Below, in pieces: positions 20,303-57,134 of a DNA stretch of 64,000 bases. Made by a program: the position numbers and the translations under genes. The stretch is taken from the NCBI RefSeq assembly GCF_963921235.1, contig NC_086108.1, positions 372,001 through 436,000 on the forward strand, read 5' to 3'. Each line of letters starts with the position of its first letter. Position 1 is the first letter of the stretch. The stretch is from Mobula hypostoma. Lineage: Eukaryota. The notes under the pieces were generated by a model. It searched no databases. It was not told the DNA's origin and saw nothing but the letters and a program-made list of their open reading frames with translations.

Positions 20303-22509
20303 TGCTGGTGCACGTGCTGTCTCTTCATGACGAAGTCTTTGTCCCTGAGCTTGGTGAGTCCGTTAATCCAATGCCAGGCCATCTTGGCATCAGGGACCAC
20401 CAGGTCCAAGTTCCTCCTGCAGCACTTAAAGACGATGGTAAAGCAGCAGTTGACGGGCATTTGGTTGGCGTACAGCTGCATGCTGACTGACTGGTGACCC
20501 GGCCTCACCTCCTGGATAGAAACATAGAAACATAGAAAATAGGTGCAGGAGTAGGCCATTCGGCCCTTCGAGCCTGCACCGCCATTTATTATGATCATGG
20601 CTGATCATCCAACTCAGAACCCAGCCTTCCCTCCATACCCCCTGACCCCTGTAGCCACAAGGGCCATATCTAACTCCCTCTTAAACATAGCCAATGAACT
20701 GGCCTCAACAGTTTGCTGTGGCAGAGAATTCCACAGATTCACCACTCTCTGTGTGAAGAAGTTTTTCCTAATCTCGGTCCTAAAAGGCTTCCCCTCTATC
20801 CTCAAACTGTGACCCCTCGTTCTGGACCTCCCCAACATCGGGAACAATCTTCCCGCATCTAGCCTATCCAATCCCTTTAGGATCTTATACGTTTCAATCA
20901 GATCCCCCCTCAATCTTCTAAATTCCAACGAGTACAAGCCCAGTTCATCCAGTCTTTCTTCATATGAAAGACCTGCCATCCCAGGAATCAATCTGGTGAA
21001 CCTTCTTTGTACTCCCTCTATGGCAAAGATGTCTTTCCTCAGATTAGGGGACCAAACCTGCACACAATACTCCAGGTGTGGTCTCACCAAGGCCTTGTAC
21101 AACTGCAGTAGTACCTCCCTGCTCCTGTACTCGAATCCTCTCGCTATAAATGCCAGCATACCGTTCGCCTTTTTCACCGCCTGCTGTACCTGCATGCCCA
21201 CTTTCAATGACTGGTGTATAATGACACCCAGGTCTCGTTGCACCTCCCCTTTTCCTAATCGGCCACCATTCAGATAATAATCTGTTTTCCTATTTTTGCC
21301 ACCAAAGTGGATAACTTCACATTTATCCACATTGAATTGCATCTGCCATGAGTTTGCCCACTCACCCAACCTATCCAAGTCACCCTGCATCCTCTTAGCA
21401 TCCTCCTCACTGCTAACTCTGCCACCCAGCTTCGTGTCATCCGCAAACTTGGAGATGCTGCATTTAATTCCCTCATCCAAGTCATTAATATATATTGTAA
21501 ACAACTGGGGTCCCAGCACTGAGCCTTGCGGTACCCCACTAGTCACCGCCTGCCATTCTGAAAAGGTCCCGTTTATTCCCACTCTTTGCTTCCTGTCTGC
21601 TAACCAATTCTCCACCCACACCAATACCTTACCCCCAATACCGTGTGCTTTAAGTTTGCACACTAATCTCCTGTGTGGGACCTTGTCAAAAGCCTTTTGA
21701 AAATCCAAATATACCACATCCACTGGTTCTCCCCTATCCACTCTACTAGTTACATCCTCAAAAAATTCTATGAGATTCGTCAGACATGATTTTCCTTTCA
21801 CAAATCCATGCTGACTTTGTCTGATCATTTCACCGCTTTCCAAATGTGCTGTCATCACATCCTTGATAACTGACTCCAGCAGTTTCCCCACCACCGACGT
21901 TAGGCTAACCGGCCTATAATTCCCCGGTTTCTCTCTCCCTCCTTTTTTAAAAAGTGGGGTTACATTAGCCACCCTCCAATCCTCAGGAACTAGTCCAGAA
22001 TCTAACGAGTTTTGAAAAATTATCACTAATGCATCCACTATTTCTTGGGCTACTTCCTTAAGCACTCTAGGATGCAGACCATCTGGCCCTGGGGATTTAT
22101 CTGCCTTCAATCCCTTCAATTTACCTAACACCACTTCCCTACTAACATGTATTTCACTCAGTTCCTCCATCTCACTGGACCCTCTGTCCCTTACTATTTC
22201 TGGAAGATTATTTATGTCCTCCTTAGTGAAGACAGAACCAAAGTAATTATTCAATTGGTCTGCCATGTCCTTGCTCCCCATAATCAATTCACCTGTTTCT
22301 GTCTGCAGGGGACCTACATTTGTCTTTATCAGTCTTTTCCTTTTTACATATCTATAAAAGCTTTTACAGTCCGTTTTTATGTTCTCTGCCAGTTTTCTCT
22401 CATAATCTTTTTTCCCCTTCCTAATTAAGCCCTTTGTCCTCCTCTGCTGAACTCTGAATTTCTCCCAGTCCTCAGGTGAGCCACTTTCTCTGGATGTTGT
22501 CAATCAGGA
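20303..22509 (-). pseudogene. Phospholipase C delta-like (PLCD1/PLCD3-like) second PH-domain exon, split by CR1 (pieces 22496-22509 and 20303-20517)
   Basis: Rejoined 229-nt exon reads (F)LIDNIQEVRPGHQSVSMQLYANQMPVNCCFTIVFKCCRRNLDLVVPDAKMAWHWINGLTKLRDKDFVMKRQHVHQH, matching the PLC-delta PH C-terminal half. The acceptor reads CG instead of AG, and no GT follows the expected exon end. Confidence 0.9.
20518..22489 (-). mobile_element. Young 5'-truncated CR1 (family A) with open RT frame
   Basis: Uninterrupted ORF2 part (20614-22503), 3'UTR and (TTTCTATG)n tail; CTGGAT duplicated at 20512-20517 and 22490-22495. Confidence 0.97.
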
Positions 22510-23057
22510 CGGCAGTGGGTCAGGGGGTGGGGAGTAACAGAGAGGCAGAGATCAGAACAAAGGATTCAGATACAGATTCATAATCATAGGAGATTCTGCT
22601 GGTGCTGGAAATCCAGAACAACAAACACAAACTGTTATTTAAATATTAATTTAGCAATATAGTGCGGAACAGATCCTTCCGGCCCAGTGAGCCACATCAC
22701 CCAACAACTTACTGACTGACAATTTACAATGACCAATTGAACCTTTCTGAAAGGCAAAGAGTCAACATTTCAAGCCAAGACCCTTCATGAATCCTGATGA
22801 AGTGTCTTGGCCTAAAATTTCAACTCTGTTTTCTCTTCATTGAGATCTGCTTATTGATTGCATTTACATCAAAACAACAGCATAATCAAAGACTCCTCCC
22901 ACCCCAGACATGCACTTTCCCCCTTTCCCATCAAAATCAAAAAAATTGAAAGCATATACAACCCGGCTCAAGATCTGCTTCTGTCCCACTGACATAGTTT
23001 TGGACACCTCCATATTTGGAAGGATGTGGAAGTTTTGGAGAAACTTTTTTTTAGAAA

Positions 23058-24400
23058 CTTCCTGTTTCTATCTTCCACCCACAGAGACTCAGTAGACAAT
23101 CCCTCCATGACTTCCTCCTTTTCTGCTGCCATGATACTATCTCTGATCAACAGTGCCACACCCCTACCTCTTCGCCTCCCTCCCTGTCCTTTCTGAAACA
23201 TCGAAAGCCTGGCACTCTAAGTAGCCATTCTTGCCCCTGAGCCATCCGTGTGTCTGTAATGTCTACAACATCATAGCTCCAAGTACTGATCCATGCTCTA
23301 AGCTGATCCGCTTTGTTCATGATACTCCTTGCATTAGAATAGACACATCTCAAACCAACAGTCTGAGCGCATCCCTTCTCTACCACCTGCCAATCCTCCC
23401 TCTCACACTGTCTACAAGCTTTCTCTATTTGTAAGCCAACCGCTCCTTCCTCCGTCACTTCAGTTCAGTTCCCACACCCCAGCAATCCTAGTTTAAACTC
23501 TCCCCAATAGCCTTAGCAAACCTTCCTGCCAAGATATTGGTCCCCCTTGGATACAAGTACAACCCGTCCTTATTGTACAGGTCACGCCTGCCCCCAAAGA
23601 GCTCCCAATGTCAAGAAATCTGAATCACTGCCCTCTGCTCCAATCCCTCAGCCCCGCATTTAACCTCCAGCTCACTCTATTCCTTTATTTACTGTCGCAT
23701 GGCACAGGCAGCAATCCTGAGATTACTACCTTTCTGGTTCTGGTTCTCAGCTTCTTTCCTAACTCCCTGTAGTCTGTTTTCAGGACTGCCTCCCTTTTCC
23801 TACCTATGTCAATGGTGCCAATATGTACCACTACCTCTGGACATTCTCCTTCCCACTTCAGGATATCGTGAACGTGATCAGGAACATCCCAGATCCTGAC
23901 ACCTACTATCCATGTTCCTTTTCTGCCTGTCTGACCCTCTAACTATATAGTCCCTTATCACTACTGCCATTCTCTTCCTTTCCCTACTCTTCTGAGCCAC
24001 AGGGCCAGATTCTGTTGCAGAGGTGCGGCCACTGTTGATTCCCCCAGGTAGCTCATCCCCCCCAACAGCACTCAAACAGGAGCACTTATTGTTAAGGAGG
24101 ACAGCCACAGGGGTGCTCTCTAGCCACTGACTCCTGCCCTTCCTTCTCCCGACTGTTACCCACTTACCTGTCTCCCGAGGCCCTCTGTGACTACTTGCTG
24201 AGAGCTCCTCTCTATCACCTCCTCACTTTCCCTGACCAGACGAAGGTCATTGAGCTGCATCTCCAATATCCTAACGTGATCCCTAAGGAGCTGCAGCTTG
24301 ACACATCTGGCACAGATGTGGTCATCTGAGAGGCTGGGAGTCTCCTGGACATCCCACATCCAACACCCAACACCCAGTACAGAACACCAATCTCACACAC
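23058..24400 (-). mobile_element. Decayed CR1 5' region (ORF1 Zn-finger/leucine zipper and esterase remnant; start of ORF2 APE)
   Basis: MWDV..DDHICARCVKLQLLRDHVRILEMQL; VVIRDYIVRG; LRCVYSNARSIMNKADQL. Confidence 0.85.
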
Positions 24401-26073: not shown

Positions 26074-26238
26074 AGATTTTGCTTCTGGCTGTCCTCAGGA
26101 TCTTTTGCGAATTGTACCAAACTGTGTTACAGTCCACCAGGAGCTTGTAAAACCGGGGCTTAATCCATGAGCTAGACTTGATCTTCAGCATGGAGCATCC
26201 TCTGAGCATAGCCTTGATATCTTCATCCTCCATGATGC
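26074..26238 (-). CDS. Phospholipase C delta-like first PH-domain exon (open, with intact splice sites; the gene may be a pseudogene)
   Basis: GIMEDEDIKAMLRGCSMLKIKSSSWIKPRFYKLLVDCNTVWYNSQKILRTARSKI resembles PLC-delta [33 protein letters not shown]; acceptor ttttcctCAGAAG (NAGNAG, alternative start 26241); donor GTGAGT; phase 1-1. Confidence 0.92.
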
Positions 26239-28990: not shown

Positions 28991-29224
28991 AAGTTTTTTG
29001 CGACTTCAAAACATTAAGCTAAATCAGAGGAAGTCACAGGAGTCTCACATTGACTTTATTTTAAGCAAGGTGTGCACATATCATGGGCAGTGTGGTGACA
29101 TATATAATCCACATTTACATATATAACCCATAATGAATTACTTCAATGAACAAAGAATGCTTATCCAACAATATAATTATAATATTACTCAAATATTAAA
29201 TATACAACAAAAACCATCTGACAC

Positions 29225-29761: not shown

Positions 29762-30495
29762 CTTCCTCAGCTCCACCAGAATTAGGATTCCAGACTTCTG
29801 TGTTTTTTTACCAGATCCAGGGACTCCTCTTTCCAACTTGTTGATTTCTTTTCCCCATCTTCAGACACCACTTCTCTTACTCTGGGAACCAGTCTGCCTT
29901 GCTCCTGTCTACTTTTTTGCCCATCTCTGCTGGCATTGCGACCTACACGTTGCTGTCCTCTTTTTTGTCGTGATCTCGTTGATCGCTCCATCTCCTTGGC
30001 TGATCTCTTCCCCACAGACCCCTTTTGTTGACTTTCTGGTCTCTCACCTTCCGACTTCATTCCCCCACTCAGCTGAACATATCTGGTGACATCCAGCTCA
30101 GCGCGCAGTCTCTCTTCGTCATTCCATTCCTGCTCATCCTTGATGGTTGCTTGGCTCACCTTTCTGTTTTTCACTCTCCCATTCCCAGTAAACCATTGTT
30201 CAGCCACTGGCTTCCTCTTTGGACGAGCTACCCCCTGAAGTAAGTGCCCGACAGCTGGCTTGGACCTTAGCCTTCTAACTGCCAGTTCCTGGGGCCTAGC
30301 TCCTTGCTCCTTTCCTTCATCCTCACCACAATCTTCTAGCTGGTTGGTGCTAGTTCTAGGATTGGCTGCCCCAGATTGGGGGCCCTTCCTGATGAACTTC
30401 TGGCAGGCCCACCAGCTGAAGGCAATGGCAGCCCCGCCCGCCGACAGTCCGAGAACCACCAGCACAGGAAGCATCCGTGAAACATGAAGCTGCAT
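29762..30495 (-). CDS. Candidate first coding exon of the PLC-delta-like gene (hydrophobic segment plus charged linker), needing one frameshift
   Basis: Non-repeat part of ORF 29782-30726: MQLHVSRMLPVLVVLGLSAGGAAIAFSWWACQKFIRK, then an E/K/R/Q-rich region. Removing one base from the A7 run (29803-29809) extends the frame to a phase-1 G|GTACAA donor compatible with the 26238 exon. Confidence 0.4.
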
Positions 30496-31608
30496 GCCTG
30501 ACCCGAAGGAATACTTAAGAACTGGAAATGATATTCCAGGGAGAAAGAGACCTCTGCGATGGTCTTCGCCAACTTTGCAGTTAACAGATGGACTCATGAC
30601 CTCATAATCTACCTCATTATGATCTCGCTCGTGACCTCCACAAGAAAATAAAGAGTGCTGTGGAAACGGCTCAGCACACCATGGAAACCAGCCTCTTGTA
30701 CGACAACAAACCGGCCATGACCTCACAATCTACCTCATTATCATCTTGCAGGAAAATGCAGGGTGTTATGAATACAGCGCCAAATTCAACTTCACCAATA
30801 TGGACTCTGTCTACGCTTCTCACTGCCTCAGTAGAGCAGCAAGCAGACCAAAGACCTCTCCCACATTCTTTCTTATCCCCTCTCCCATCCAGTAGGAAAT
30901 GCAAAAGCCCAAGAACATGTGCCACAAGGTTCAAGGACAGCTTCTACTCCCATCTATCTTTGACAATATACAGATATAATAAGGACAATTAAGAAACTTC
31001 ATGTTCAAAGTTCAAAGTAAATATATTATCAAAGTGCACACACTATTGTGCAAAAGTCTTAGGCACGTGTGTACAGCTAGGGTGTGGAAGACGTTTACAG
31101 AGTACTTCAGTGATTTTATGTATTGCACAGTACTGCTGCCATGAAAAAAATTCCATTACATCGTGAGGGATGATAAACCTGATTCTGATATGGGTCTCTA
31201 TTGTGGACTGAGTTTGGGAAGGGGGCAGGAAGAGAAAAATGGGGAAGAGAAAGGGGAGGGAATGGAAACCAAAGAGACATTCTCTCATAATCGATAAAGA
31301 AATTTAACTGAGAAGGTTACGCACTGCACTCTCCCCCAACCACCCAGTCTCTCACTCTCTCTCCAACTGCCTATATTAGACTGTCAACCAGAAAACTTTG
31401 TAAACAACATCACCTATACAATCCTCCTGGCCTCCTAACTATCCTATCAATTCCTCCCTTTCACCTTTGCACCTTGAAATTAACTTCGCCAGTTCTAACA
31501 AAGGGTCTTTAACAGGAAATGTTAACTCTAATCTACAGCACTGCTTGAATGCATTTTGATGTCTTTTTCCTCTTTTGTCATCATCATTGCTAATTTAGTA
31601 AGGAGATT

Positions 31609-31651
<43 letters not shown>
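31609..31651 (+). repeat. (TG)n(AG)n compound microsatellite
   Basis: Seen directly; its counterpart at 55480-55550 is about 30 bp longer. Confidence 0.95.
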
Positions 31652-31652
<1 letters not shown>

Positions 31653-32671
31653 CACTATATATGGTGATGAGCAATCTAGATTCAGTCCTGACTGGAGTCC
31701 AATCTGTGTGAATTTTACACATTATTTCTGTGATCATGTAGACTTGCCCTGGATGCTCCACTTTCCTCTTAAATCCCAAAGGCACGTGGGTCAGTAAGTT
31801 AACTAACTGCTGGAAATTGTCCCAAATCCAGGGACAATGAAAATTAGTGGAAGAATGGAATTGCTGTGGTCTTTATGTGGTATCGACTTACCTCCTTTCA
31901 TATCATAAACAGACAGGCCTTTCAGCCTATAGTGTCTATTCCAACCATCCCATTTACCAGCATTTGATCTCAGTAAGTCAGACAGCATCTGTGAAGGCAG
32001 AGGGGTGGTTAGAGTTTCGGATTTTGGACTCTGAAGCAGGAGCCTGATGCAGTGTCTTGACCTGACTGCTGATCATCTCTTTGTTTCCATAGATGTTTCT
32101 TTAAATTATACCAGAACCACCCTGAACTGATGCAAGGAACAGTCAAGGCAGTTTGACCATAATGTTAAGCCAACCTACTCAGAGAATAATCTAACCCTTC
32201 TCTCCCACATAGTCCTTCAGTTTTCTTTCATCCATTGCCTATCTATTTTAAATTATCCTCATGTATCTACTTCTATCAGCACCCTGGCAGTGCATTCCAC
32301 ACACGAACTCTCTGCAATAACCTGACTATGACTTTTTCCCTTCAATCACCTTAAAATAATGCCCTCTCATACTAGCCAACGCCACCCGGGACAAAAGCAC
32401 TGGCTGGCCACTCTGTTTCAAATGTTCCCTCACACAAGATGATGCTGTTCCTGAAGCTCACTTTGAACCTCTTTCAGACAGTCCATGAGACCACCGAGAG
32501 GCATCAGAATAGTAGAGTTATAGGGGTAAAGGATTTTACTCCTACCCATAGTAATAGGATTTTACCTCATCAACTGTGATAATTTTAGTATTAAAGACTG
32601 GAGACAGGAAAGTGATAGTGGTTAGTTTTTGTGATTTCAAGTCTATGGCCAGTGGTATTGAAGTGTGTGAA

Positions 32672-35575: not shown

Positions 35576-35597
35576 GTGAAGGGAACGCTTTGGATTT

Positions 35598-42522: not shown

Positions 42523-43875
42523 TTACCGGAAGTTTGAGAAACCGGTGTTCATGCCATCAAGTTGCACGCTACCTAGACGGAATAGAAGGTGTTGTTCCTT
42601 TAACCTGAGTGTGGTCACATCGCGGAAGTAGAGGAAGCCATGGGAAATGTTAGAGTGGGAATTGGAAGTAGAATTAAAATGGGTGGCCATTGGGAGATCC
42701 TACTTTTTCTGGCTGATGAAGCATAGGTGGTTGATGAAGCGGTCTCCCAATCTACGCCAGGGCTCACCAATACACAGGAGACCACACCGGGAGCACCCGA
42801 TACAGAGATGACCTCAGCAGACTCACCATCAATGCTGCCCTCATCCGCATCTCTTCCATTACTCATATCTGCTCTCACCCCATCCTCGCCACCCCACCAG
42901 GGATGGGGTTCCTCTTGTTTTCACCTACCACACCACTAGCCTCCACGTCCAACACATAATTTTCCATAACTTCTGCCACCTCCAACAGGATCCCATCATC
43001 AAGCACATCTTTTGCTCCTCACCACTTCCTGTTTTCCATATTGTTTGCGACTCCCTTGTCCATTCACTTCTCCCCACCCATCTCTCTCCTGGTGCTTATC
43101 CTTACGAGCAGAATAAGTGCTACACCTGCCCTTACAACTCTTCTCTCACTGCCATTCAGGACCCCAAACAGTCCTTCCAGGTGAGGTGACACTTCACCTG
43201 TGAGGGTGTGGGGGTCATCTACTGTATCTGGTGCTCCCAGTGTGGCCTCCTTTATACTGGTGAGACCCAATGCAGGTTGGGAGACCGCTTCACCGAGCAT
43301 CTATGCTTTGCCCGCCAGAAAAAGCAGGATCTCCAATTGGCCATCCTTTTTAATTCTACTTACCATTCCCATTCCGACATGTTTGTCCATGGCCTCCTCT
43401 AGTGCTGCAATGAGGCCACACTCAGGTTGGAGGAGCAACACGTTACATTCTGTCTGGTTCCATCTGGATTGCATGGATATCAATTTCACGAACATCTGGT
43501 AATTTCCCTCCCCCACCTCTCCTTCATCATTCCCCATTCCCATTTCCCTTTCTCAACTTATCTCCTAACCTCCCACCACCTCCCTCTAGTGCTCCTCCCT
43601 CTTCCCTTTCTTCCACGGCCTTCTATCAGATTCCTCCTTCTCAGCCCTTCATCTCGTTCAGCGATTGATTTCCCAGCTCTTCACTTCAGACCTCTCCCTC
43701 TCCCAGGTTTCACCTATCACCTACTACCTTGTATTTCTTCCTCCCCTCCTCCACCTTCTCACCATTTTCCTCCAGTCCTGATGAAGGGTCATGGCCCAAC
43801 ACCAACCTGTTTACTCTTTTCCATAGATGCTGCCTGCTCTGCTGAGTTCCTGCAGCATTTTGTGTGTGTTGCTCA
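42523..43875. mobile_element. Penelope-like 3' fragments (GIY-YIG plus pseudo-LTR) in inverted arrangement
   Basis: GVIYCIWCSQCGLLYTGETQCRLGDRFTEH on + (43208-43402); a homologous copy on - (42615-42830) continues to 39530-39842. Confidence 0.85.
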
Positions 43876-44134
43876 AAGCATTCTCAGCCAGGTGTACGGT
43901 GCCAGAGCACTGGAGGATAGCTAATGTTGATCAGTTAATAAAGAAATGCTGTAAAAATGAGTCAGGAAATGATAAACCAGTGAGCTTACCAGTAGTGGGT
44001 AACATTGGAGGGTATTCTAAGGTACTGGATATATAAGTAGTTGGATAGACAGGTACAGATTGGAGATAGTCAACATGACTCTGTGCCATTGTAGGGCACG
44101 TCCAGCCAATTTCACAGTGTTTTACTCGGTCCGT

Positions 44135-45470
44135 TGATGAATGAGAAGCACTCAAGCCCACATCCTGGCTATTATTTGGAGGCCTATGGTTCCTATAATG
44201 GTGTTTTCACCCTTGCAGTTTCTTAATTCCACCCACAAAGATTCAACATTCTCTGAGCCCATGCCACCTCCTTCTAAAGATGTAATTCCATCTCTTAACA
44301 ACAGAGCCACACCACTGCCTATGCCTTCCTGCCTGTCCTTTCAATACAAAGTATATCCTTTGATGTTAAGCTCCCAACTATGGCCTTCTTTCAGCCACGA
44401 CTCAGTGATGCCCATAGCATCATACTGACCAATCTCTGATTGCCCCACAAGTTCGTCCACCTTATTCCAAATGCTATGTGCATTTGAGTACAGCATCTTT
44501 AGTCCTGCATTCTTCACCTTTTGAATTTTGCCTCTGTGGTGCAATCTAACTCATTGTTCTGTCTGCATTTGTGCCCAACATTTGGCTTGTCCTTCCTTAC
44601 ATTCATGTTACACCCATCATCTACTTGCAAACCTGTTGGCTCATTCTCAGCTCTATCATCCTGGTCCCCATCCCCCTGCCATATAAGTTTAAACCACTCC
44701 CAACAGCTCTAGTACACCTGCCCACAAGAATACTGCATTCAAGTACATTCCCTCCCTTTTGTACAGGTCACAGCTGCCTCAAAAGAGGTCCCAATTATCA
44801 AGAAATCTGAATCCCTGCCCCACGCGTCAATTCTTCAGTCACGCATTTATCTGCCACTTCATTCTGCTCCTATCCTCACTGTCGCATGGCACAGGTAGCA
44901 ATCCTGAGGTGACTACCCTTGAGATCCTGATTCTCAGCTTTTTTCCTAACTCCCTGTATTCTGCTTTCAGGACTTCCTCCCTTTTTCGACCTTTGTCGTT
45001 GGTACCAATATGTTCCACGACCTCTGGCTGCTCACCCTCCCTTTTCAGGATATTGTGGACACATCCTGGACCCTGACACCTGGGAGGCAGCTATCATCCT
45101 TATTTCTTTTTCACCATCACAGAATCACCTATCTCTTACCCTAGCTATAGTCCCTTATTAGTACTGCAATCCTCTTCACTTCCCTACCATTCTGAGCCAC
45201 AGGGTCAGACTCAGCCCGAGAGGCACGGCCGCTGTTGCTTCCCCCACATAGGCCATACCCCCCCAACAGTACTCAAAATGGAGATACTTATTGTTGAGGG
45301 GGATGGCCACAGGGGTGCTCTCCACTATCTGACATTCTTCCTTTCCTCTCCTGACAGTCACCCATTGATCTGTCTCCTCCAGCCAGGATTGACTATCTCC
45401 CAGTCGCTCATGTCTATCACCTCTTCACTTTCTCGAACAAGCTGCAGCTCCAGTTCCCTAACATGGTCTT
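44135..45470 (-). mobile_element. Decayed CR1 5' region (ORF1 remnant plus APE start)
   Basis: ESTPVAIPLNNKY; LKMLYSNAHSIWNKVDEL...GITESWLKEGHSWELNIKGY. Confidence 0.8.
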
Positions 45471-46403
45471 TAAAGATGGGTTCAATGGGTAAAGAAGGAC
45501 TACAGATGAGAGCTGTGTTTAAATAGGCAGCCGGTAATTCATGTTAGCTGGCTGGAGACTGGGAAGTGCCTGGCTGTGCAGGCCTGATAGAATACAGGAG
45601 TTGGAATATTATGTTGATATTAAACAAGTTGTTGCTGAGATGGAATTTGGAATATTGTGTGCAGTTTCAGTCTCCTAATTAGTTGAAAGTTATCAATAAG
45701 ATGAAAATGTACAAAAAAATTTACAAGGATGTTGCAAGGTCTTGAAGACTTCAATTATTGGAGAAGCTTGAATAGATTAAGACATTATTCCCTTGGAGCA
45801 TAGGAGAATGAGAGGAGTTTTGATCGAGGTATACAAACTTATAAGATAAGTGCAAGAAGGCTTTCTTCACTGAGGTTGAGTGAATCTAGAACTAGAGGTC
45901 AGGGGTTAGGGGTGAAAGATGAAATGTTTAAGGGAAACATAAAGGAAAACTTCTTCACTCAGTGGTATGTGAGAGTGTGACATGAGCTGCTAGCAGAAAT
46001 AGTGATTGAGGGTTTCATTTCAACATCTGCCATTTCACCACAATATCTGCAACAGATCTATATCCCAATATATCATTTTGCAGTTGTTCACACTATCCAC
46101 AACACCACCAATCCTTGTGTCACCTGAAAACTTACTAATCCAATGTCATCTACAGTATATATATCCTGTATCACAAACAGTAGAGGTCCCATTACATTTC
46201 CCTGTGGAATAACATTAATTATGGACCTTCAACTGCCATCCTGTTTGTAATTCTGATTAGTTAAACCAGATCAGAACTAGTAGGGCTCTAGAACTTTCAG
46301 AGAACAGAGATATATTGGAAATTGCCACCAGCCCTTAATTGTTAATCATAAATGGAAATAACATGTTCTCAAAGGAGAAATACATGAATAGCCTGAAATA
46401 TAA

Positions 46404-46782
46404 ACTTACCATCTTTAACTCAGGGGACTCAATGTATTAAAGTGTTTGGTATACCTTGACCTGAATTGCTCTTCAAATTTACTTCTCATGTATGAAAGAA
46501 TTCCCTTTATTACCCTCGCATAAGTCAACAGCAGTCATACTGATGACACAATAATAGTTTGTCAATTCTGCATTGTGATCTGGTAATCTTATGCAATTTA
46601 ATAGTAATTATCAGAAATTTTCTACATTATTCAGCCAGGAAACCCTGAGTCAGCAACAAGGCTGCCATTTTTTGTCCACACTGTCAAAGAATTGGCCAGC
46701 CCGGCCATCTGTGTACCAGCTGACCAGTCCACCCGTACAAATCGTGGACAATTAGCGTGGTTCTTATTGTTGTACGATGCAC
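46404..46782 (-). other. Candidate first exon ending in AAG-ATG|GTAAGT (probably the SPATA25-like exon 1, now inverted)
   Basis: Non-repeat sequence with a consensus donor GTAAGT at 46409-46404 immediately after ATG (46412-46410). Gene assignment is an inference from the inversion reconstruction. Confidence 0.45.
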
Positions 46783-48565
46783 AAACCCCAAGGCGTTCTT
46801 CAATAATGTGAAGAACAAAAGGATGACAGGAGTGAAGGTAGGACCGATTAGAGATAAAGGTGGGAAGATGTGCCTGGAGGCTGTGGAAGTGAGCGAGGTC
46901 CTCAATGAATACTTCTCTTCGGTATTCACCAATGAGAGGGAACTTGATGAAGGTGAGGACAATATGAGTGAGGTTGATGTTCTGGGGCATGTTGATATTA
47001 AGGCAGAGGAGGTGTTGGAGTTGTTAATATACATTAGGACAGATAAGTCCCCAGGGCCTGATGGAATATTCCCCAAGCTGCTCCACGAGGTGAGGGAAGA
47101 GATTGCTGAGCCTCTGGCTAGGATCTTTATGTCTTCATTGTCCACGGGAATGGTACCGAACGATTGGAGGGAGGCGAATGTTGTCCCTTTGTTCAAAAAA
47201 GGTAGTAGGGATAGTCCGGGTAATTATAGACCAGTGAGCCTTACGTCTGTGGTGGGAAAGCTGTTGGAAAAGATTCTTAGAGATGGGATCTATAGGCATG
47301 TAGAGAATCATGGTCTGATCAGGGACAGTCAGCATGGCTTTGTGAAGGGCAGATCGTGTCTAACAAGCCTGATAGAGTTCTTTGAGGAGGTGACCAGGTA
47401 TATAGATGAGGGTAGTGCAGTGGATGTGATCTATAAGGATTTTAGTAAGGCATTTGACAAGGTTCCACACGGTAGGCTTATCCAGAAAATCAGAAGGCAT
47501 GGGATCCAGGGAAGTTTGGCCAGGTGGATTCAGAATTGGCTTGCCTGCAGAAGGCAGAGGGTCGTGGTGGAGGGAGTACATTCAGATTGGAGGGTTGTGA
47601 CTAGTGGTGTCCCACAAGGATTGGTTCTGGGACCTCTACTTTTCAAGATTATTATTAGCGACCTGGATGTGGGGGTAGAAGGGTGGGTTGGCAAGTTTGC
47701 AGACGTCACAAAGGTTGGTGGTATTGTAGATAGTGTAGGGGATTGTCGAAGATTGCAGAGGGCATTGATAGGATGCAGAAGTGGGCTGAGAAGTGGCAGA
47801 TGGAGTTCAACCAGGAGAAGTGTGAGGTGGTACATTTTGGAAGGACAGACTCCAAGGCAGAGTACAAAGTAAATGGCAGGATACTTGGTAGTGTGGAGGA
47901 GCAGAAGGATCTGGGGGTAAATGTCCACAGATCCCTGAAAGTTGCCTCACAGGTGGATAGGGTAGTTAAGAAAGCTTATGGGGTGTTAGCTTTCATAAGT
48001 CGAGGGACAGAGTTTAAGAGTCACGATGTAATGATGCAGCTCTATAAAACTCTGGTTAGGCCACACTTGGAGTACTGTGTCCAGTTCTGGTCACCTCACT
48101 ATAGGAAGGATGTGGAAGCATTGGAAAGGGTACAGAGGAGATTTACCAGGATGCTGCCTGGTTTAGAGAGTATGAATTATGATCAGAGATTAAGGGAGAG
48201 AAGGAGGATGAGAGGAGACATGATAGAGGTATACAAGATATTAAGAGGAATAGATAGAGTGGATAGCCAGCGCCTCTTCTCCTGGGCACCACTGCTCAAT
48301 AAAAGGGGCCATGGCTTTAAGGTAAGGGGTGGGAAGTTCAAGGGGGATATTAGAGGAAGGTTTTTCACTCAGAGAGTGGTTGGTGCGTGGAATGCACTGC
48401 CTGAGTCAGTGGTGGAGGCAGATACACTAGTGAAATTTAAGAGACTACTAGACAGGTATATGGAGGAATTTAAGGTGGGGAGGCAGGTTTTGAGGGTCAG
48501 CACAACAATGTAGGCCGAAGGGCCTGTACTGTGCTGTACTATTCTATGTTCTATGTTCTATGTTC
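46783..48565 (+). mobile_element. 5'-truncated CR1 (family B)
   Basis: RT ORFs 46757-47872 and 47743-48513 (frameshift, small deletion); (TTCTATG)n tail. Confidence 0.95.
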
Positions 48566-48859
48566 GAAAGTGAACTGCAGTGAACTAGCCTAGCAAAGTC
48601 TTTATAAAACGTTAGGACACAAAGTCGCTACCTTGTACTTGCGGTGAAAGCGGTACTGCTCATATAGAATTCGATGCTGAAGCTCAATACTGTAAAAGAC
48701 GCACCTCTCTCCGTGTAAATACAGTGCATTTGGTGTAGAGATTGTCAAATAACCATCATACGCGTAATTGCCTGCATGAAGACCCCAGATTTCTAGTGCA
48801 CTGAGTGACGTCAGTGGTAAATGCGTCAGATACCAGTTGTAAAACGAACAGTACACTAA
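48566..48859. promoter_or_regulatory. Unique CpG-retaining segment with a CRE; candidate promoter
   Basis: Palindromic TGACGTCA at 48806-48813 and CRE-like TGCGTCA at 48822-48828; many CpGs relative to old flanking repeats. Confidence 0.45.
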
Positions 48860-51800
48860 CAGCACTAGAGGAGGCCATGGACAAACATGTCGGAATGGGA
48901 ATGGTAAGTAGAATTAAAAAGGATGGCCAATTGGAGATCCTGCTTTTTCTGGCGGGCAAAGCATAGATGCTCGGTGAAGCGGTCTCCCAACCTGCATTGG
49001 GTCTCACCAGTATAAAGGAGGCCACACTGGGAGCACCAGATACAGTAGATGACCCCCACACCCTCACAGGTGAAGTGTCACCTCACCTGGAAGGACTGTT
49101 TGGGGTCCTGAATGGCAGTGAGAGAAGAGTTGTAAGGGCAGGTGTAGCACTTATTCTGCTCGTAAGGATAAGCACCAGGAGAGAGATGGGTGGGGAGAAG
49201 TGAATGGACAAGGGAGTCGCAAACAATATGGAAAACAGGAAGTGGTGAGGAGCAAAAGATGTGCTTGATGATGGGATCCTGTTGGAGGTGGCAGAAGTTA
49301 TGGAAAATTATGTGTTGGACGTGGAGGCTAGTGGTGTGGTAGGTGAAAACAAGAGGAAGCCCATCCCTGGTGGGGTGGCGAGGATGGGGTGAGAGCAGAT
49401 ATGAGTAATGGAAGAGATGCGGATGAGGGCAGCATTGATGGTGAGTCTGCTGGGGTCATCTCTGTATCGGGTGCTCCCGGTGTGGTCTCCTGTGTATTGG
49501 TGAGCCCTGGCGTAGATTGGGAGACCGCTTCATCAACCACCTATGCTTCATCAGCCAGAAAAAGTAGGATCTCCCAATGGCCACCCATTTTAATTCTACT
49601 TCCAATTCCCACTCTAACATTTCCCATGGCTTCCTCTACTTCCGCGATGTGACCACACTCAGGTTAAAGGAACAACACCTCTATTCCGTCCAGGTAGCGT
49701 GCAACTTGATGGCATGAACACCGGTTTCTCAAACTTCCGGTAACATAGTCATAGTCATACTTTATTGATCCCAGGGGGAAATTGGTTTTCGTTACAGTTG
49801 CACCATAAATAATAAACAGTAATAGAACCATAAATAGTTAAATAGTAATATGTAAATTATGCCAGTAAATTATGAAATAAGTCCAGGACCAGCCTATTGG
49901 CTCAGGGTGTCTGACCCTCCAAGGGAGGAGTTGTAAAGTTTGATGGCCACAGGCAGGAATGACTTCCTATGACGCTCCGTGTTGCATCTCGGTGGAATGA
50001 GTCTCTGGCTGAATGTACTCCTGTGCCCAACCAGTACATTATGTAGTGGATGGGAGACATTGTCCAAGATGGCATGCAACTTAGACAGCGTCCTCTTTTC
50101 AGACACCACCGTGAGAGAGTCCAGTTCCATCCCCACAACATCACTGGCCTTACGAATGAGTTTGTTGATTCTGTTGGTGTCTGCTACCCTCAGCCTGCTG
50201 CCCCAGCACACAACAGCAAACTTGATAACAGTGGCCACCACAGACTCGTAGAACATCCTCAGCATCGTCCGGCAGATGTTAAAGGACATCAGTCTCCTCA
50301 GGAAATAGAGACGGCTCTGACCCTTCTTGTAGACAGCCTCAGTGTTCTTAGACCAGTCCAGTTTATTGTCAATTCGTATCCCCAGGTATTTGTAATCCTC
50401 CACCATGTCCACACTGACCCCCTGGATGGAAACAGGGGTCACCGGTACCTTAGCTCTCCTCAGGTCTACCACCAGCTCCCTAGTCTTTTTCACATTAAGC
50501 TGCAGATAACTCTGCTCACACCATGTGACAAAGTTTCCTACCGTAGCCGTGTACTCAACCTCATCTTCCTTGCTGATGCATCCAACTATGGCAGAGTCAT
50601 CCGAAAACTTCTGAAGATGACAAGACTCTGTGCAGTAGTTGAAGTCCGAGGTGTAAATGGTGAGAGAAGGGGAGACAAGACAGTCCCCTGTGGAGCCCCA
50701 GTGCTGCTGATCACTCTGTCAGACACACAGTGTTGCAAGCACACGTACTGTGGTCTGCCAGTTGGATAATCAAGAATCCATGATACTAGGAAAGCATCCA
50801 CCTGCATCGCTGTCAGCTTCTCCCCCAGCAGAGCAGGGCGGATGGTGTTGAATGCACTGGGGAAGTCAAAAAACATGACCCTCACAGTGCTCGCTGGCTT
50901 GTCCAGGTGGGCGTAGACACGGTTCAGCAGGTAAACGATGGCATCCTCAACTCCTAGTCGGGGCTGGTAGGTGAACTGGAGGGGATCTAAGTGTGGCCTG
51001 ACCATAGGCCAGAGCAGCTCCAGAACAAGTCTCTCCAGGGTCTTCATGATGTGGGAGGTCAATGCCACCGGTCTGTAGTCATTGAGGCCGCTGGGGCGCG
51101 GCGTCTTCGGCACAGGGACGAGGCAGGACGTCTTCCACAGGAACCTTCTGGAGCCTCAGGCTCAGGTTGAATACATGGCGAAGTACTCCACATAGCTGAG
51201 GGGCACAGGCTTTGAGAACCCTGGTACTGACATCATCCGGTCCTGCAGCCTTGTTTGGGTTGAGACGTTTCAGCTGTCTTCTCACCTGTTCAGCTGTGAA
51301 GCCCACCGTGGTGGTTTCGTGTGGGGAAGAGGTATAGTCATGAGAGCAGGGTGGGGGACTGTGAGGAGGGGTAGGAAGGGAGAGTGGAATATGTGTTGGT
51401 TGGAGGCCGACAACAGATGGCTCATGTGGGGGATGGGCAGGGGTCACAATGTCAAATCTGTTAAAGAACAGGTTAAGTTCATTGGCCGTGTCCACACTGC
51501 CTTCAGTTCCTCTGTTGCTAGTTTGCCGGAACCCAGTGATGGTCCTCATCCCACTCCAGACCTCTCTCATGTTGTTCTGCTGGAGTTTCCACTCAAGCTT
51601 CCTCCTGTACCTGTCTTCAGCCTCCCTGATCCTGGCTTTCAGGTCCCTCTGTATTGCCCTCAGCTCTTCCCTATTTCCATCTCTAAACACCCACTTTTTA
51701 GCGTTCAGGATGTCCTTAATGTCCTTTGTCACCCATGGCTTGTTATTTGAATAACAAAGGACAGTTCTTGTCGGAACATTGCAGTCCACACAGAAGTTGA

Positions 51801-54800
51801 TGCAATCAGTGATGCACTCTGTGAGCCCAACAATATCCTCTCCATGTGGCTCACAGAGTGCCTGCCAGTCTGTCACCTCAAAACAACCCTGGAGCGCCTC
51901 ATAAGCCTCCTCCGACCATTTCCTCACTGTCCTCGAGGTTGCAGGTTTACTCTTCACCAGAGGCACGTAGCAGGGTTTTAGATGCACCAGGTTGTGATCT
52001 GACCTTCCCAGTGGGGGGAGGGGAGAGGAGCTGTATGCATCCTTAATGTTAGCGTACATCAAATCCAGAGTCCTCTCCCCTCTGGTTGTACAGCTCACAT
52101 ACTGCATGAAGTTGGGCAGTGTTCTAGCCAAGGTAACCTGGTTGAAGTCACCCGAGATGGTAATGAGGACATTCGGGTGCTGGGTTTGTAATCTGGCTAT
52201 GACGGTGTAAATGATGTTACACTCTGACGTCGGGTTGGCAGAGGGAGGGATGTACACAACAACCACAATTGCATGCGAGATTTCCCTTGACAAATAATAT
52301 GGCCGGAGTCCAACAGCAAAAAGTTCAATATCCGGGCTACAGACACGTTCCTTGATCGTAATATGCCCAGGATTACACCATCTGTTATTTACCAGAACCG
52401 CCAGCCCCCCTTCTTTGCGTTTACTTAACCCCCTTCCCTTCACCATTTCCTGTTCCCATTTCCTTCTCTCACCTGATCTTCTTACCTTTCCATCACTGCT
52501 GTCTGGTGCTTCTCCCCCTTTTCTTTCTCCCATGGCTTTCTGTCCTCAGATTCATCATTCTCCAACCCTGTACCTTCTTACTCTGAATTCTCATCTTTTT
52601 CTCCAGAGCTGATGAAGGGTCTCGAACCAAAACGTCAACTGTTTACTCTTTTCCATAGATGTTACCTGGCCTGCCGAGTTCCTCCAGCATTTTGTGTGTG
52701 TTGTTTAGATTTCCAGCACCTGCAGATTTTCTCTTATTTGTGCTAAGAATGCTTTAAATACCTCTGAAAAGGTCCCTGCAATTCCTGCACCAGCTTTCCA
52801 CAAGGTGTGAGAGGCACTTTGTCAGACTCTGGGATTTACATACCCTAATTTGCCTCAAGACAGCAAGCACCTCCTCCTTTGTAATCTGTATATGGTTCAT
52901 AACTTCACTGTATTGCTTGAGTTCAATAGACTTTGGGATCATCCCTCAAATAAATATATATGCAAAAAAAAAACATTTAAGATCTCCCCCATCCCTTGGC
53001 TCCATGCATAGATAGGCACGCTGATCTTCAAGAGGACCAATCTTCTTCCTTGCTCCCCATTTGCTCTTAGTATATTTTTAAAAACCTTTGGGATTCTCCT
53101 ACACCTCGTCTACGAGAACAACCTCATACCATTTTTTATGTCTCTTGATTTCCTTTTACGTATTCTCTTATCTTTTTCATATTCAAGTACATCATTTGCT
53201 CCTTGCTGCTTATACCTGCTATGCACATCCCTCTCCTTCTTAAATACAGCCACATTATCCCTCAAAGAAGCAAGGTTCCCTGAACTTGCTAACTTTGCTC
53301 TCAAAATTCTGTACTCTCAAAATTTTACTTTAAGGCCTTCCACATGGCTTTGCCAGAAAGCAACCTGCTCAATCCACACTTGCTAGATCCTTTCTGATAC
53401 CAGCAAAATCAGCTTTTCTCTAATTTACAATCTCAATTCAAGGACTAGAACTATCCCTGTCCATAATTATCTTGAAACTAATTGGAAATTTGACCACGAG
53501 ATTCAGAGATGTGGGTCAGACAAACTATAAACAGCACTGGGGTCCCATAGGGGATTGTATTGGCTCCCTCCCTGTTGACTTTGTACACTTCAGACTTTAG
53601 GTACCACACTGAGTCATAACATCTGCAGATATCCTCTGATGACTCAGCAATGGTTGGGTGTATAAAGGGAGGACGGGAGGATGAATACAGGGGCCTGGTG
53701 GAGGACTTTGTCAAATGGTCCAAGCTCAACATTAATAAGACAAAGGGGATGGTGATAGACTTTAGGAAGACTAAGCCTGCATCGCTCCCTTTTACTATTG
53801 ATGGTGAGGACATGGAAGTAGTGAGGCCTAACAAATACCTGGGAGTGCATCTGGGTGACAGACTTGAGTGGAGCTGTGTACAAGAAGGGCCACCTCTACT
53901 TTCTGAGGAGACTGAGATCCTTTGGACTATGCAAGTCTCTCCTTCACACGTTCTACCAATCTGTTGTCACTAGTACAATCCTCTATGTGTGCGAGTCAAT
54001 GGCATCAACACAGGTGATACCAACAGACTGAATAAACTGATTAGAAAGGCTGGGTCTGTTATAGGAGTCAAACTGGACACACTGGAGACTGTAGTAGAAC
54101 AAAGGTCCCCACAGAAAATCCTGACAATTCTGGACAGTTTTCTCACCCTCTGCCTTCCCCCTTGGCTGAACAGAGAAGCACTTTTAGTAACAGACTAAGA
54201 CAACTGCACTGCTTTAAAGAGCACTACAAGTGGTCACTCTTACCCTCGGCCGTTATGCTCTATAATGAGTTAACCTATAGCCAGGGAAGTGATGACCCCC
54301 TCCTGTTAGACTGTCTGAGGTCACTTATTTTTTATTCTTTTTACTTCTCTTCTAATATTAATATCTGTGCACATGTAATGCTACTGTGGCACTGTAATTT
54401 CCTTTGGGATCAGTAATGTATCTATCCATTTATCTATCTATCTAAATCCAAAGCGTTCCCTTCACACACTTCAATACCAGTGGCCATAGACTTGAAATCA
54501 CAAAAACTAACCACTATCACTTTCCTGTCTCCAGTCTTTAATACTAATATTATCACAGTTGATGAGGTAAAATCCTATTACTATGGGTAGGAGTAAAATC
54601 CTTTACCCCTATAACTCTACTATTCTGATGCCTCTCGGTGGTCTCATGGACTGTCTGAAAGAGGTTCAAAGTGAGCTTCAGGAACAGCATCATCTTGTGT
54701 GAGGGAACATTTGAAACAGAGTGGCCAGCCAGTGCTTTTGTCCCGGGTGGAGTTGGCTAGTATGAGAGGGCATTATTTTAAGGTGATTGAAGGGAAAAAG

Positions 54801-55478
54801 TCATAGTCAGGTTATTGCAGAGAGTTCGTGTGTGGAATGCACTGCCAGGGTGCTGATAGAAGTAGATACATGAGGATAATTTAAAATAGATAGGCAATGG
54901 ATGAAAGAAAACTGAAGGACTATGTGGGAGAGAAGGGTTAGATTATTCTCTGAGTAGGTTGGCTTAACATTATGGTCAAACTGCCTTGACTGTTCCTTGC
55001 ATCAGTTCAGGGTGGTTCTGGTATAATTTAAAGAAACATCTATGGAAACAAAGAGATGATCAGCAGTCAGGTCAAGACACTGCATCAGGCTCCTGCTTCA
55101 GAGTCCAAAATCCGAAACTCTAACCACCCCTCTGCCTTCACAGATGCTGTCTGACTTACTGAGATCAAATGCTGGTAAATGGGATGGTTGGAATAGACAC
55201 TATAGGCTGAAAGGCCTGTCTGTTTATGATATGAAAGGAGGTAAGTCGATACCACATAAAGACCACAGCAATTCCATTCTTCCACTAATTTTCATTGTCC
55301 CTGGATTTGGGACAATTTCCAGCAGTTAGTTAACTTACTGACCCACGTGCCTTTGGGATTTAAGAGGAAAGTGGAGCATCCAGGGCAAGTCTACATGATC
55401 ACAGAAATAATGTGTAAAATTCACACAGATCGGACTCTAGTCAGGACTGAATCTAGATTGCTCATCACCATATATAGT

Positions 55479-55553
<75 letters not shown>

Positions 55554-55833
55554 TCTCCTTACTAAATCAGCAATGATGATGGAAAAAGAGGAAAAAGACA
55601 TCAAAATGCATTCAAGCAGTGCTGTAGATTAGAGTTAACATTTCCTGTTAAAGACCCTTTGTTAGTACTGGTGAAGTTAATTTCAAGGTGCAAAGAGGAA
55701 AGGGAGGAATTGATAGGATAGTTAGGAGGCCAGGAGGATTGTATAGGTGATGTTGTTTACAAAGTTTTCTGGTTGACAGACTAATATAGGCAGTTGGAGA
55801 GAGAGTGAGAGACTGGGTGGTTGGGGGAGAGTG
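48860..55833 (-). repeat. Right arm of the inverted segmental duplication
   Basis: Reverse complement of 31327-43407 without the two CR1 copies; both empty sites visible (about 54255 and 54462). Confidence 0.97.
49744..52424 (-). mobile_element. Duplicated copy of the Rex1/Babar LINE
   Basis: Mirror of 39843-42522 with the same junctions and the shared LQKVPVEDVL frameshift. Confidence 0.9.
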
Positions 55834-56305
55834 AAACCACAGAAATAATTGAAGTTTGAAAACTAGTAGCAGGTCGGAAGAGCTACAGAGAAATTAAATC
55901 ATTGTGGTCTGGAAATGCCCAGCAAATCAGAGTGGCTGTGAAATGAGAAGAACTGAGTCAATGTTAGAGAAGGATAAACTCAGAGCAAAGCTTGCTAGTT
56001 CTGAAACAGAGAGTTAAACAAAACTGAACTGATTGAATTTGACATTGAGACAGAAGGCCACCGTGTGTCCAGCTGAGGATGAAGTGCTGTTCCTCAAGCT
56101 GCCATTGGCCCTCATTGGAACTGTACTGGAGATCATAGTCTTATGCCCCCTTCAAATGACAGTAACGGTTTGATTTCTTCCAGGGAAATTTTTAAGTGTG
56201 GTCTTATATTATCACATAGACATGATTTTAGGAATACATATTTAAAACTTGAATATAAAACTCAGTAGATCTGTCCTTGTGTTTGTGAAACATATCTCTT
56301 TATAG

Positions 56306-57134
56306 GTGATCACATTGACGCTAATTCAGAACTACCTCTGCTTCCAAATCGTAAAACTTGTCCCCTCATTGCAGAAAACAACACAGAGAAGTAGTGACAG
56401 GACACGTAAAGATAGAACGCAACAGTGTTTTAGCTGTAGTGCATCCTTTATTTATCTACGCCGACAAATTTGCTGTTTAATGAATCACTTTTCTCTTCAA
56501 GGCAATATGGAATATCCAAAACAACAATGGAATCAACAGGGAGATGATTATCCTGAAATTTATCTTCAAGGCTTTTATGAAACATATTCTTTAAACACTT
56601 TTCTCGATAATCATGCAGATTATTTTCACCATCAGAATTATTCCGACCACTCTACAATGTCATTGAGCAGGAGGTCACAGAATTTTGAACTAAGTCATGA
56701 GGGATCTGCACCTCATGTAATTTTACACCAACAGCTTGAACATTATCAACAAAGCCACCAATTACAAAGAACAAGATTTCCTGTTGAAAGTATCACATCC
56801 TGTGGCCACATCACACCAAGGCTTGCCTGATTACGGAGCTGCAGCAGAACCTGCAAAGCAAAGTGAAACTCCCAGAACATGTATCCTCACTCTTGCCATG
56901 ATGATAGCTGGCATCCCCACTGCCCCTGTGCCCACTGTGAAAACCGAAGATATGGTGTTGGCAGTACAAAAATTCAGAGATGATAACCCAAACCTAAGCA
57001 GTGACATAGATGAGATGCTGAAAGTTAAAAGAGACAGAAAAGAAGCCTTTATGAATGATTCACCTTTGCAGATGAAAGTTAACACTACAGATGAGAGGAT
57101 CAACTGGAAGAGAATGAGAGAATCCTCAAGTTAA
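56306..57134 (+). pseudogene. SPATA25: SPATA25-like terminal coding exon with an apparent frameshift (56736-56830 overlap)
   Basis: [27 protein letters not shown] matches the SPATA25 motif [25 protein letters not shown] as I recall it. Acceptor tctctttatAG at 56305; overlapping 174-aa and 132-aa frames; AATAAA near 57323. Confidence 0.8.

What the first reader, a model, noticed from the sequence alone, without database searches (positions are those of the whole stretch)
20303..57134. Ancestral head-to-head pair of a PLC-delta-like gene and a SPATA25-like gene sharing a CRE promoter
After undoing the inversion, the CRE (48806-48813) sits about 0.9 kb from the candidate PLC start (30495, minus) and about 0.6 kb (CR1 removed) from the candidate SPATA25 ATG (plus). 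Established: CRE/CREM drives post-meiotic germ-cell genes, and mammalian PLCZ1 shares a bidirectional testis promoter with CAPZA3. Inference: this may be an undescribed chondrichthyan bidirectional testis module containing a divergent delta-type PLC, now decaying in this lineage.
Basis: inference. Interest (0 to 1): 0.8.

Follow-up and report, generated by a model that had tools for sequence, protein, structure and literature searches.

The report
Two dead genes beside flipped promoter
In a ray genome, a broken SPATA25-like gene (a spermatid gene in mammals) and a broken offshoot of phospholipase C delta with no enzyme part nearby face away from each other across a likely flipped stretch that holds a likely promoter, but the offshoot is likely a stray copy of a ray gene family, so this is probably not an ancient shared testis module.

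Summary
The parts are real, but the ancient-module reading is not supported. A single CRE lies at 48806-48813. One CRE per window is chance level (37 of 100 shuffles), though it sits in a CpG-undepleted 295-nt block. A 7-kb inverted duplication (arms 1.1% apart) likely flipped the spacer that holds it. The start homologous to skate SPATA25 is at 56480/56507, 13 kb away even after undoing the flip. The SPATA25-like gene has two frameshifts against an intact skate protein (73% identity). The 'PLC' is three exons: a predicted membrane anchor plus a PLC-delta PH domain. No EF-hand, X, Y or C2 exon was found in the 20 kb downstream. Exon 3 has lost its acceptor and carries a CR1 insertion. Unchecked earlier notes describe dozens of such anchor-plus-PH copies elsewhere in this genome. 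The best reading is a stray dead copy beside a dead SPATA25 whose promoter was flipped. Borrowing of that promoter remains possible. Synteny and expression could not be tested.

The parts
30048..30495 (-). Exon 1 of the anchor-plus-PH gene (448 nt): ATG at 30495, predicted membrane anchor at residues 8-26, charged spacer, in-frame phase-1 donor AAG|GTGAGA. The open frame runs on to a stop at 29782.
   Evidence: Hydropathy 2.14 over 19 residues against 0.22 for the best later window. No homologue found.
26074..26238 (-). Exon 2 (165 nt, phase 1 to 1), first half of a PLC-delta PH domain, canonical AG and GT sites
   Evidence: Ungapped match to rat PLC-delta-1 PH, 1MAI, E 7.9e-15, 25 of 53 residues identical by my count from the printed alignment; splice sites
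22490..22509 (-). First 20 nt of exon 3; its acceptor reads CG instead of AG
20512..22489 (-). Young CR1 LINE inserted inside exon 3, with a 6-nt target-site duplication
   Evidence: 1.0-1.1% different from the two CR1 copies in the left arm
20303..20511 (-). Rest of exon 3 (209 nt; 229 nt in all), second half of the PH domain. No GT donor follows; the frame reads on to a stop at 20257 and an AATAAA lies at 19962.
   Evidence: 1MAI match E 1.1e-11, 25 of 57 identical by my count
31327..43407 (-). Left arm of the inverted duplication, carrying two CR1 insertions (2,227 and 2,909 nt) that the right arm lacks
43408..48859 (.). Single-copy spacer of 5.45 kb, inferred to be flipped. A repeat element runs on across 43407/43408 but is cut at 48859/48860.
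   Evidence: (element arm 308 nt in the left copy, 202 nt in the right)
48563..48859 (.). Promoter-like block: CRE 48806-48813, second half-site 48824-48828, TATA-like palindrome at 48603, 13 CpG (observed/expected 0.97)
46783..48562 (+). Older CR1 between the promoter-like block and the candidate donor
   Evidence: 5.5% different from its sibling at 26323-28133, with 6 gap runs
46404..46412 (-). ATG|GTAAGT: candidate donor of a non-coding first exon of SPATA25 (inferred); not its start codon
   Evidence: GGTAAGT occurs 8 times in the window
48860..55833 (+). Right arm of the inverted duplication; inferred to be old first-intron sequence of SPATA25, mostly transposons
56480..57207 (+). SPATA25-like pseudogene: one coding exon, acceptor-like site at 56501/56502, frameshifts near 56801 and 57123, premature stop at 56828-56830 ahead of the SPATA25 domain
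   Evidence: 175 of 239 residues identical to Leucoraja erinacea XP_055507958.1; PF15218

Best explanation
Two broken genes face away from each other here, a SPATA25-like gene with two frameshifts and a three-exon gene joining a predicted membrane anchor to a PLC-delta PH domain with no enzyme exons found in the next 20 kb, and the second is likely a stray copy of a ray gene family that landed beside what was likely SPATA25's own CRE promoter before an inverted duplication likely flipped that promoter. Shown: the exons, their lesions, the duplication and which junction is new. Inferred: the earlier order was PH-gene flank, spacer (reversed), duplicated block, SPATA25. The CRE block drove SPATA25 through a non-coding first exon ending at 46410. 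SPATA25 began to decay first, possibly when an older CR1 landed in that first exon. A break-and-template-switch event then inverted spacer plus block while leaving a copy of the block in place. A young CR1 finally hit exon 3 of the PH gene. While intact, the PH gene would have made a 295-residue tether (anchor in one membrane, PH domain on PI(4,5)P2 of another), not a lipase. Its place next to SPATA25 is taken as incidental.
For: No Pfam EF-hand, X, Y or C2 hit among 139 of the 192 minus-strand frames of 30 residues or more in 1-20256; the 53 left out lie inside three transposon stretches. A recalled-motif scan found no credible catalytic motif in six frames. Exon 3 has no GT donor and is followed by a stop and an AATAAA. 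All 8 listed of 9 'phospholipase' notes in this genome lie on other pieces, and several describe dozens of anchor-plus-PH copies (unchecked). Human SPATA25 is named among the neighbours of MMP9 with NEURL2, ZSWIM1 and PLTP (PMC9560657, passage), whereas PLCD1 is at 3p22.2 (PMC6231310, abstract in listing). Spata25 is a spermatocyte and round-spermatid gene in mammals, which fits a CRE. The 3 Logan proteins start at the second ATG, just behind the acceptor-like site, as a spliced non-coding exon would give (weak). Two frameshifts in 728 nt exceed the 0.31 indels expected since the duplication (P about 0.04). The junction polarity and a 3-nt CAG microhomology fit the reconstructed order.
Against: Look-ups with exon 2 protein and exon 3 DNA found no look-alike in other windows, and exon 1 has no repeated 4-residue word, unlike the repeat spacers in the earlier notes. 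So this copy could be older or separate. Pfam also missed the two true PH exons, so its blank downstream is weaker than it looks, and enzyme exons could lie beyond position 1. About 670 of the 830 nt between the PH-gene ATG and the breakpoint match repeats, so the CRE may once have been about 200 nt from that ATG, as close as it is to the SPATA25-side TATA. The join of the left flank to the spacer rests on 3 nt only. No relative's locus was seen.
Confidence: 0.5

Rival explanations
1. Recent promoter capture: the mobile anchor-plus-PH cassette landed just behind SPATA25's CRE promoter in a ray ancestor and was transcribed from its reverse side in spermatids, until the flip moved the promoter 18 kb away and the gene died.
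For: CRE 878 nt from the ATG in the earlier order, about 200 nt once repeat-matching DNA is set aside. The CRE and the TATA-like element are palindromes. The PH gene is open apart from exon 3, and its CR1 is about as old as the duplication (1.0-1.1% against 1.08%).
Against: No expression data. One CRE is chance level. The cassette may have had its own promoter. SPATA25 seems to have decayed earlier than the flip.
Confidence: 0.2
2. The CRE block travelled with the cassette and is the PH gene's own promoter, inherited from an alternative anchor exon of PLCD1; it has nothing to do with SPATA25.
For: Close to the anchor-exon ATG once repeats are set aside. The 46412 donor motif is not rare (8 in the window) and its ATG is out of frame. 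Earlier notes say the parent gene has an unannotated anchor exon (unchecked).
Against: The TATA-like element and the donor lie on the SPATA25 side of the CRE. No other CpG-undepleted block was seen between the spacer and SPATA25.
Confidence: 0.12
3. The CRE block is not a promoter of either gene (a chance motif or a transposon remnant), or the duplicated and flipped layout is an assembly artefact.
For: 37 of 100 shuffles hold a CRE. The other CpG-rich windows lie in or at transposon sequence. Arms 1% apart resemble two haplotypes, and no read spanning 48859/48860 was seen.
Against: The block has no second copy in the window and no repeat match in the self-comparison. The arms differ with a 51:24 transition bias and by arm-specific CR1 insertions. 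A haplotype mis-join would still need the new junction to exist in a real molecule.
Confidence: 0.12
4. One reading: an ancient cartilaginous-fish module in which a divergent full PLC-delta and SPATA25 share a bidirectional CRE promoter, like PLCZ1 and CAPZA3.
For: The genes do face apart, and the reconstructed CRE lies between them. An intact SPATA25-like protein exists in skate. The PLCZ1/CAPZA3 precedent is in print (PMC10815952, passages).
Against: No enzyme exons in 20 kb. No homologue of exon 1 among 1.84 billion representatives. The PH exons align without gaps to PLC-delta-1, whose other copies lie on other pieces. The claimed SPATA25 ATG is out of frame. From memory, the four vertebrate genome-doubling slots are filled by PLCD1, PLCD3, PLCD4 and PLCZ1, none beside SPATA25.
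Confidence: 0.06

Closest known systems
PH domain of rat PLC-delta-1 (PDB 1MAI; PLCD1)
   Same: Both PH exons align without gaps at 47% and 44% identity. The positions recalled as PI(4,5)P2-binding (K30, K32, W36, R40, S55, K57) are kept.
   Different: A predicted membrane anchor and charged spacer come first. No EF-hand, X/Y or C2 exon follows in 20 kb. Exon 3 is broken.
SPATA25 (TSG23; PF15218); Leucoraja erinacea LOC129707177, XP_055507958.1
   Same: 73% identity over the whole length, one coding exon, same two possible starts
   Different: Two frameshifts, the first of which stops the protein before the SPATA25 domain; the likely promoter is flipped away
PLCZ1/CAPZA3 bidirectional testis promoter of mammals
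   Same: Back-to-back layout with a CRE-type site between a PLC-derived gene and a spermatid gene (PMC10815952, passages)
   Different: PLCZ1 is an active enzyme without a PH domain (recalled); this gene is the reverse, PH without enzyme. Start sites, co-expression and conservation are all unshown here. Both genes are dead.
Anchor-plus-PH offshoots of PLCD1a in this ray genome
   Same: Three exons: anchor and spacer, then two PH exons, no enzyme part, often decayed
   Different: The spacer is not repetitive, no look-alike was found by sequence, and no Penelope element directly flanks this copy

Membership tests
PLC-delta enzymes (PLCD1/3/4) | N-terminal PH domain of the delta type | tested here: met
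   1MAI matches, E 7.9e-15 and 1.1e-11
PLC-delta enzymes (PLCD1/3/4) | EF-hand, catalytic X/Y and C2 exons downstream | tested here: not met
   None among 139 of 192 frames in the 20 kb downstream and no credible motif. Pfam missed the PH exons too, and DNA beyond position 1 was not available.
PLC-delta enzymes (PLCD1/3/4) | Spliceable, open reading frame | tested here: not met
   Exon 3 acceptor CG, CR1 inside exon 3, no GT donor after it
PLCD1 rather than PLCD3 or PLCD4 | Groups with PLCD1 in a tree | not testable with these tools
   No PLCD3/4 sequences obtained. The ungapped match to PLC-delta-1 is shown; that 165 nt for exon 2 is PLCD1-specific is recalled.
PLCZ1 | Catalytic PLC that lacks a PH domain (recalled) | tested here: not met
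   PH present, catalytic exons not found
SPATA25 | PF15218 above cut-off and full-length likeness to an annotated relative | tested here: met
   51 bits against cut-off 27; 175 of 239 identical to the skate protein, which itself scores 57.8
SPATA25 | Intact reading frame | tested here: not met
   Frameshifts near 56801 and 57123
SPATA25 | Neighbours NEURL2 and ZSWIM1 | tested here: inconclusive
   No host-gene domain among 205 further window frames of 45 residues or more; neighbours may lie outside the window
Bidirectional testis promoter (PLCZ1/CAPZA3 type) | Two genes on opposite strands facing apart | tested here: met
   ATG 30495 (minus) and 56480 (plus); about 13.9 kb apart in the reconstructed order
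Bidirectional testis promoter (PLCZ1/CAPZA3 type) | Two start sites within about 1 kb and co-expression in testis | not testable with these tools
   No RNA holder listed
Bidirectional testis promoter (PLCZ1/CAPZA3 type) | CRE beyond chance in promoter-like DNA | tested here: inconclusive
   CRE at chance level; block CpG ratio 0.97, reached by 13 of 6,371 overlapping windows
Bidirectional testis promoter (PLCZ1/CAPZA3 type) | Arrangement conserved in relatives | not testable with these tools
   No genome held; no vertebrate locus retrieved
Ray anchor-plus-PH offshoots of PLCD1a (earlier notes) | Anchor exon, two PH exons, no enzyme part | tested here: met
Ray anchor-plus-PH offshoots of PLCD1a (earlier notes) | Repetitive spacer | tested here: not met
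   No repeated 4-residue word in the 237-residue frame
Ray anchor-plus-PH offshoots of PLCD1a (earlier notes) | Sequence kinship with the other copies | tested here: inconclusive
   0 look-alikes for exon 2 protein (16 words) and exon 3 DNA (100 words); the copies themselves could not be fetched

The most novel reading that the evidence does not exclude
A mobile, enzyme-less membrane-tether gene cut from PLCD1 landed behind the SPATA25 spermatid promoter in a ray ancestor, captured its reverse-strand activity and became a sperm-cell tether. One inverted duplication then swung the shared promoter round and shut both genes off, so birth and death of a bidirectional testis pair are recorded in 37 kb.
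Probability: 0.2. Interest if true: 0.55.

Novelty: new member of a known kind. Interest (0 to 1): 0.3.

Why it matters
As it stands, this is a tidy case of two pseudogenes and a promoter-flipping inverted duplication. It documents loss of SPATA25 in this ray while skate keeps an intact frame, and it adds one more decayed anchor-plus-PH copy. It does not reveal a new testis phospholipase. It would matter more if the copy borrowed the SPATA25 promoter. That would show how a dispersed gene family gains germ-line expression and would say where to look (testis RNA) for transcripts of a family for which earlier notes report none.

Tried and rejected
Homologue searches with the 237-residue exon-1 frame found nothing, and exon 2 found nothing among longer proteins. 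These libraries hold few vertebrates, so the blanks are weak. Nine exact look-ups of window peptides gave 0 of 9. Sequencing runs: no RNA holder listed. The four runs offered covered only repeat-matching parts of 28900-31400 and nothing of 56130-57520, which says nothing about expression. A metagenome scan with the skate protein gave 107 pattern matches and none confirmed. No whole genome is held. Rfam gave 0 matches. The feature search with exon 3 gave generic PH clusters only. A comparison of the whole downstream stretch with solved PLC sequences was not obtained, so the absence of enzyme exons rests on Pfam and a motif scan. I considered a one-base slip in the A run near 29805 that would extend exon 1 to a donor at 29762; it is not needed, since an in-frame donor exists at 30048. 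I considered a minor-class intron after exon 3; none of the 10 listed papers of 215 mentions PLCD1, so this is left open. Rejected: the 46412 ATG as the SPATA25 start; a PLCZ1 orthologue; the CRE as significant on its own. Literature: no paper held 4 of 5 terms on PLCZ1 and cartilaginous-fish synteny. None of the listed papers addresses this locus or family by title or abstract start. The main text of a 2026 mobulid genome preprint has 0 hits for phospholipase, PLCD or SPATA; its supplements were not seen and may bear on this.
Full report
Setting. The window is vertebrate DNA, mostly LINEs and other repeats. Its SPATA25-like gene is 73% identical to a little-skate protein, so a ray is likely. 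Earlier notes call the genome a devil ray (unchecked). No whole genome is held, so relatives could be reached only as proteins.

The rearrangement. Self-comparison shows 48860-55833 repeated in reverse at 31327-43407. The arms differ at 75 of 6,944 columns (1.08%; 51 transitions, 24 transversions; one difference is at the boundary). The left arm alone carries two CR1 insertions of 2,227 and 2,909 nt. A repeat element with inverted arms straddles the inner ends. It continues across 43407/43408 (308-nt arm) but is cut at 48859/48860 (202-nt arm). So 43407/43408 is the old join and 48859/48860 is new. The earlier order is inferred as left flank, reversed spacer, block, right flank. The last three bases of the left flank are the reverse complement of the first three of the block, which fits a direct join with 3-nt microhomology; chance is roughly 1 in 64, so this is modest support. 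Both genes lie outside the rearranged part and face apart today as well.

The CRE. There is one TGACGTCA, at 48806-48813. Shuffles give 0.45 on average and 37 of 100 hold at least one; half-sites are also at chance level, 42 against 38. Its setting is more telling. The block 48563-48857 has 13 CpG at an observed/expected ratio of 0.97, against a window median of 0.3. Only 13 of 6,371 overlapping windows reach that ratio, and the others lie in or at transposon sequence (my reading). The block also holds a second half-site and a TATA-like palindrome about 200 nt towards the SPATA25 side. In the earlier order the CRE is 878 nt from the ATG at 30495, and about 670 nt of that interval matches repeats. 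It is 614 nt from an ATG|GTAAGT at 46412 once the CR1 is removed. A promoter is likely; its owner is not shown.

The SPATA25-like gene. PF15218 scores 51 bits against a cut-off of 27. One homologue cluster was found, 1 of 8 candidates. It has 4 members: Leucoraja erinacea XP_055507958.1 (249 residues) and three Logan proteins of 240 residues. All are collinear with one exon at 56480-57207. The window has frameshifts near 56801 and 57123, each a net loss of about 14 nt, and the first gives a stop before the conserved domain. The ATG at 46412, spliced to the acceptor at 56502, is out of frame, so it is not the start. It could end a non-coding first exon: the three Logan proteins begin at the second ATG, just behind that acceptor, as a spliced leader would give. 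This is weak, and the donor motif occurs 8 times in the window. Six indels between the arms predict 0.31 in 728 nt since the duplication, so two is unlikely (P about 0.04). Decay probably began before the flip; the older CR1 in the candidate first exon (5.5% from its sibling) is a possible cause. In mammals Spata25 is a spermatocyte and round-spermatid gene (PMC9962311 and PMC8002376, passages).

The PLC-like gene. Exons of 165 and 229 nt match the PH domain of rat PLC-delta-1 without gaps. Exon 3 has CG in place of its AG acceptor and a CR1 with a 6-nt target duplication inside it; splicing to the AG at the CR1 tail gives an immediate stop. After exon 3 there is no GT donor; the frame reads on to a stop at 20257 with an AATAAA at 19962. 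Exon 1 starts with a hydrophobic 19-mer (2.14, next best 0.22), continues as a charged spacer and has an in-frame donor at 30048. It has no homologue in three searches. In the 20 kb downstream, 139 of 192 minus-strand frames were scanned (53 inside transposons were left out) and none hit an EF-hand, X, Y or C2 family. Pfam also missed the PH exons on their own, so this is not proof. The gene reads as a 295-residue anchor-spacer-PH protein: a predicted tether that would bind PI(4,5)P2, since the recalled binding residues are kept, and not a lipase.

What this does to the reading. Earlier notes of this scan describe dozens of anchor-plus-PH offshoots of PLCD1a, and full-length paralogues, on other pieces of this genome. 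They are unchecked leads. I confirmed the layout here but not sequence kinship: look-ups found no look-alike and the spacer lacks repeats. Human SPATA25 is named with NEURL2, ZSWIM1 and PLTP near MMP9 (PMC9560657, passage), while PLCD1 is at 3p22.2 (PMC6231310, abstract in listing). No neighbouring host gene was found among 205 further frames. A PLCD1-derived piece beside SPATA25 is thus best read as an arrival, not as an old partner. The PLCZ1/CAPZA3 promoter is in print (PMC10815952, passages). In Table 1 of PMC10454534 (section 4.1 read) both genes fall in Crem-null testis yet are listed as not bound by CREM.

Likely order of events (inferred). The cassette arrives behind the SPATA25 promoter. 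An older CR1 enters the SPATA25 leader and SPATA25 decays. The inverted duplication flips the promoter block. Young CR1 copies land in the left arm and in exon 3; they differ by 0.5-1.1%, about the age of the arms. That the PH gene died at about the time the block moved away is the best hint that it used the block, and it keeps promoter capture at about 0.2.

Verdict. Two pseudogenes and a promoter-flipping inverted duplication are real in the assembly. An ancient bidirectional testis module with a delta-type PLC is unlikely (0.06). I found nothing in print on this locus or family. Interest 0.3.

Noticed in passing
window 32772-35624 (-): CR1 with an unbroken 950-codon frame. Four copies of this young family lie in the window, 0.5-2.6% apart, so it may still be active.
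   Followed up: partly
window 32674-34903 and 35784-38013: Two young CR1 copies form a 2.2-kb, 99% inverted repeat only 880 nt apart, a likely unstable spot.
   Followed up: no
window 8391-11574 (-): Penelope-like element (label partly recalled): reverse-transcriptase hit and a weak GDSL/SGNH hit upstream, about 8.7 kb downstream of PH exon 3 on the same strand.
   Followed up: partly
window 18443-18790 (+): Short retroviral envelope-like fragment (PF00429, E 2e-4, below cut-off), between two 76%-alike stretches at 15106-15422 and 19126-19473.
   Followed up: no
window 20292-20303 (-): No GT donor after PH exon 3. A decayed minor-class donor could explain why such copies end here; not resolved.
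   Followed up: partly
window 46404-46412 (-) and 26238: After the flip the candidate SPATA25 leader donor points towards the PH gene's exon 2, and the former PH-facing side of the block points towards SPATA25: a promoter swap, though both genes are broken.
   Followed up: no
window 56801 and 57123: Both SPATA25 frameshifts are net losses of about 14 nt against the skate protein.
   Followed up: partly
window 4891-6063 (+): Tc1/Sleeping-Beauty transposase fragment runs in frame into a CR1 fragment.
   Followed up: no
window 23688-23942 (-): SGNH-type (OSK) domain hit in an old LINE remnant.
   Followed up: no
window 48-4039 (+): Decayed long LINE with a CpG-rich 5-prime end, Tx1/L1-like by recall.
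   Followed up: no
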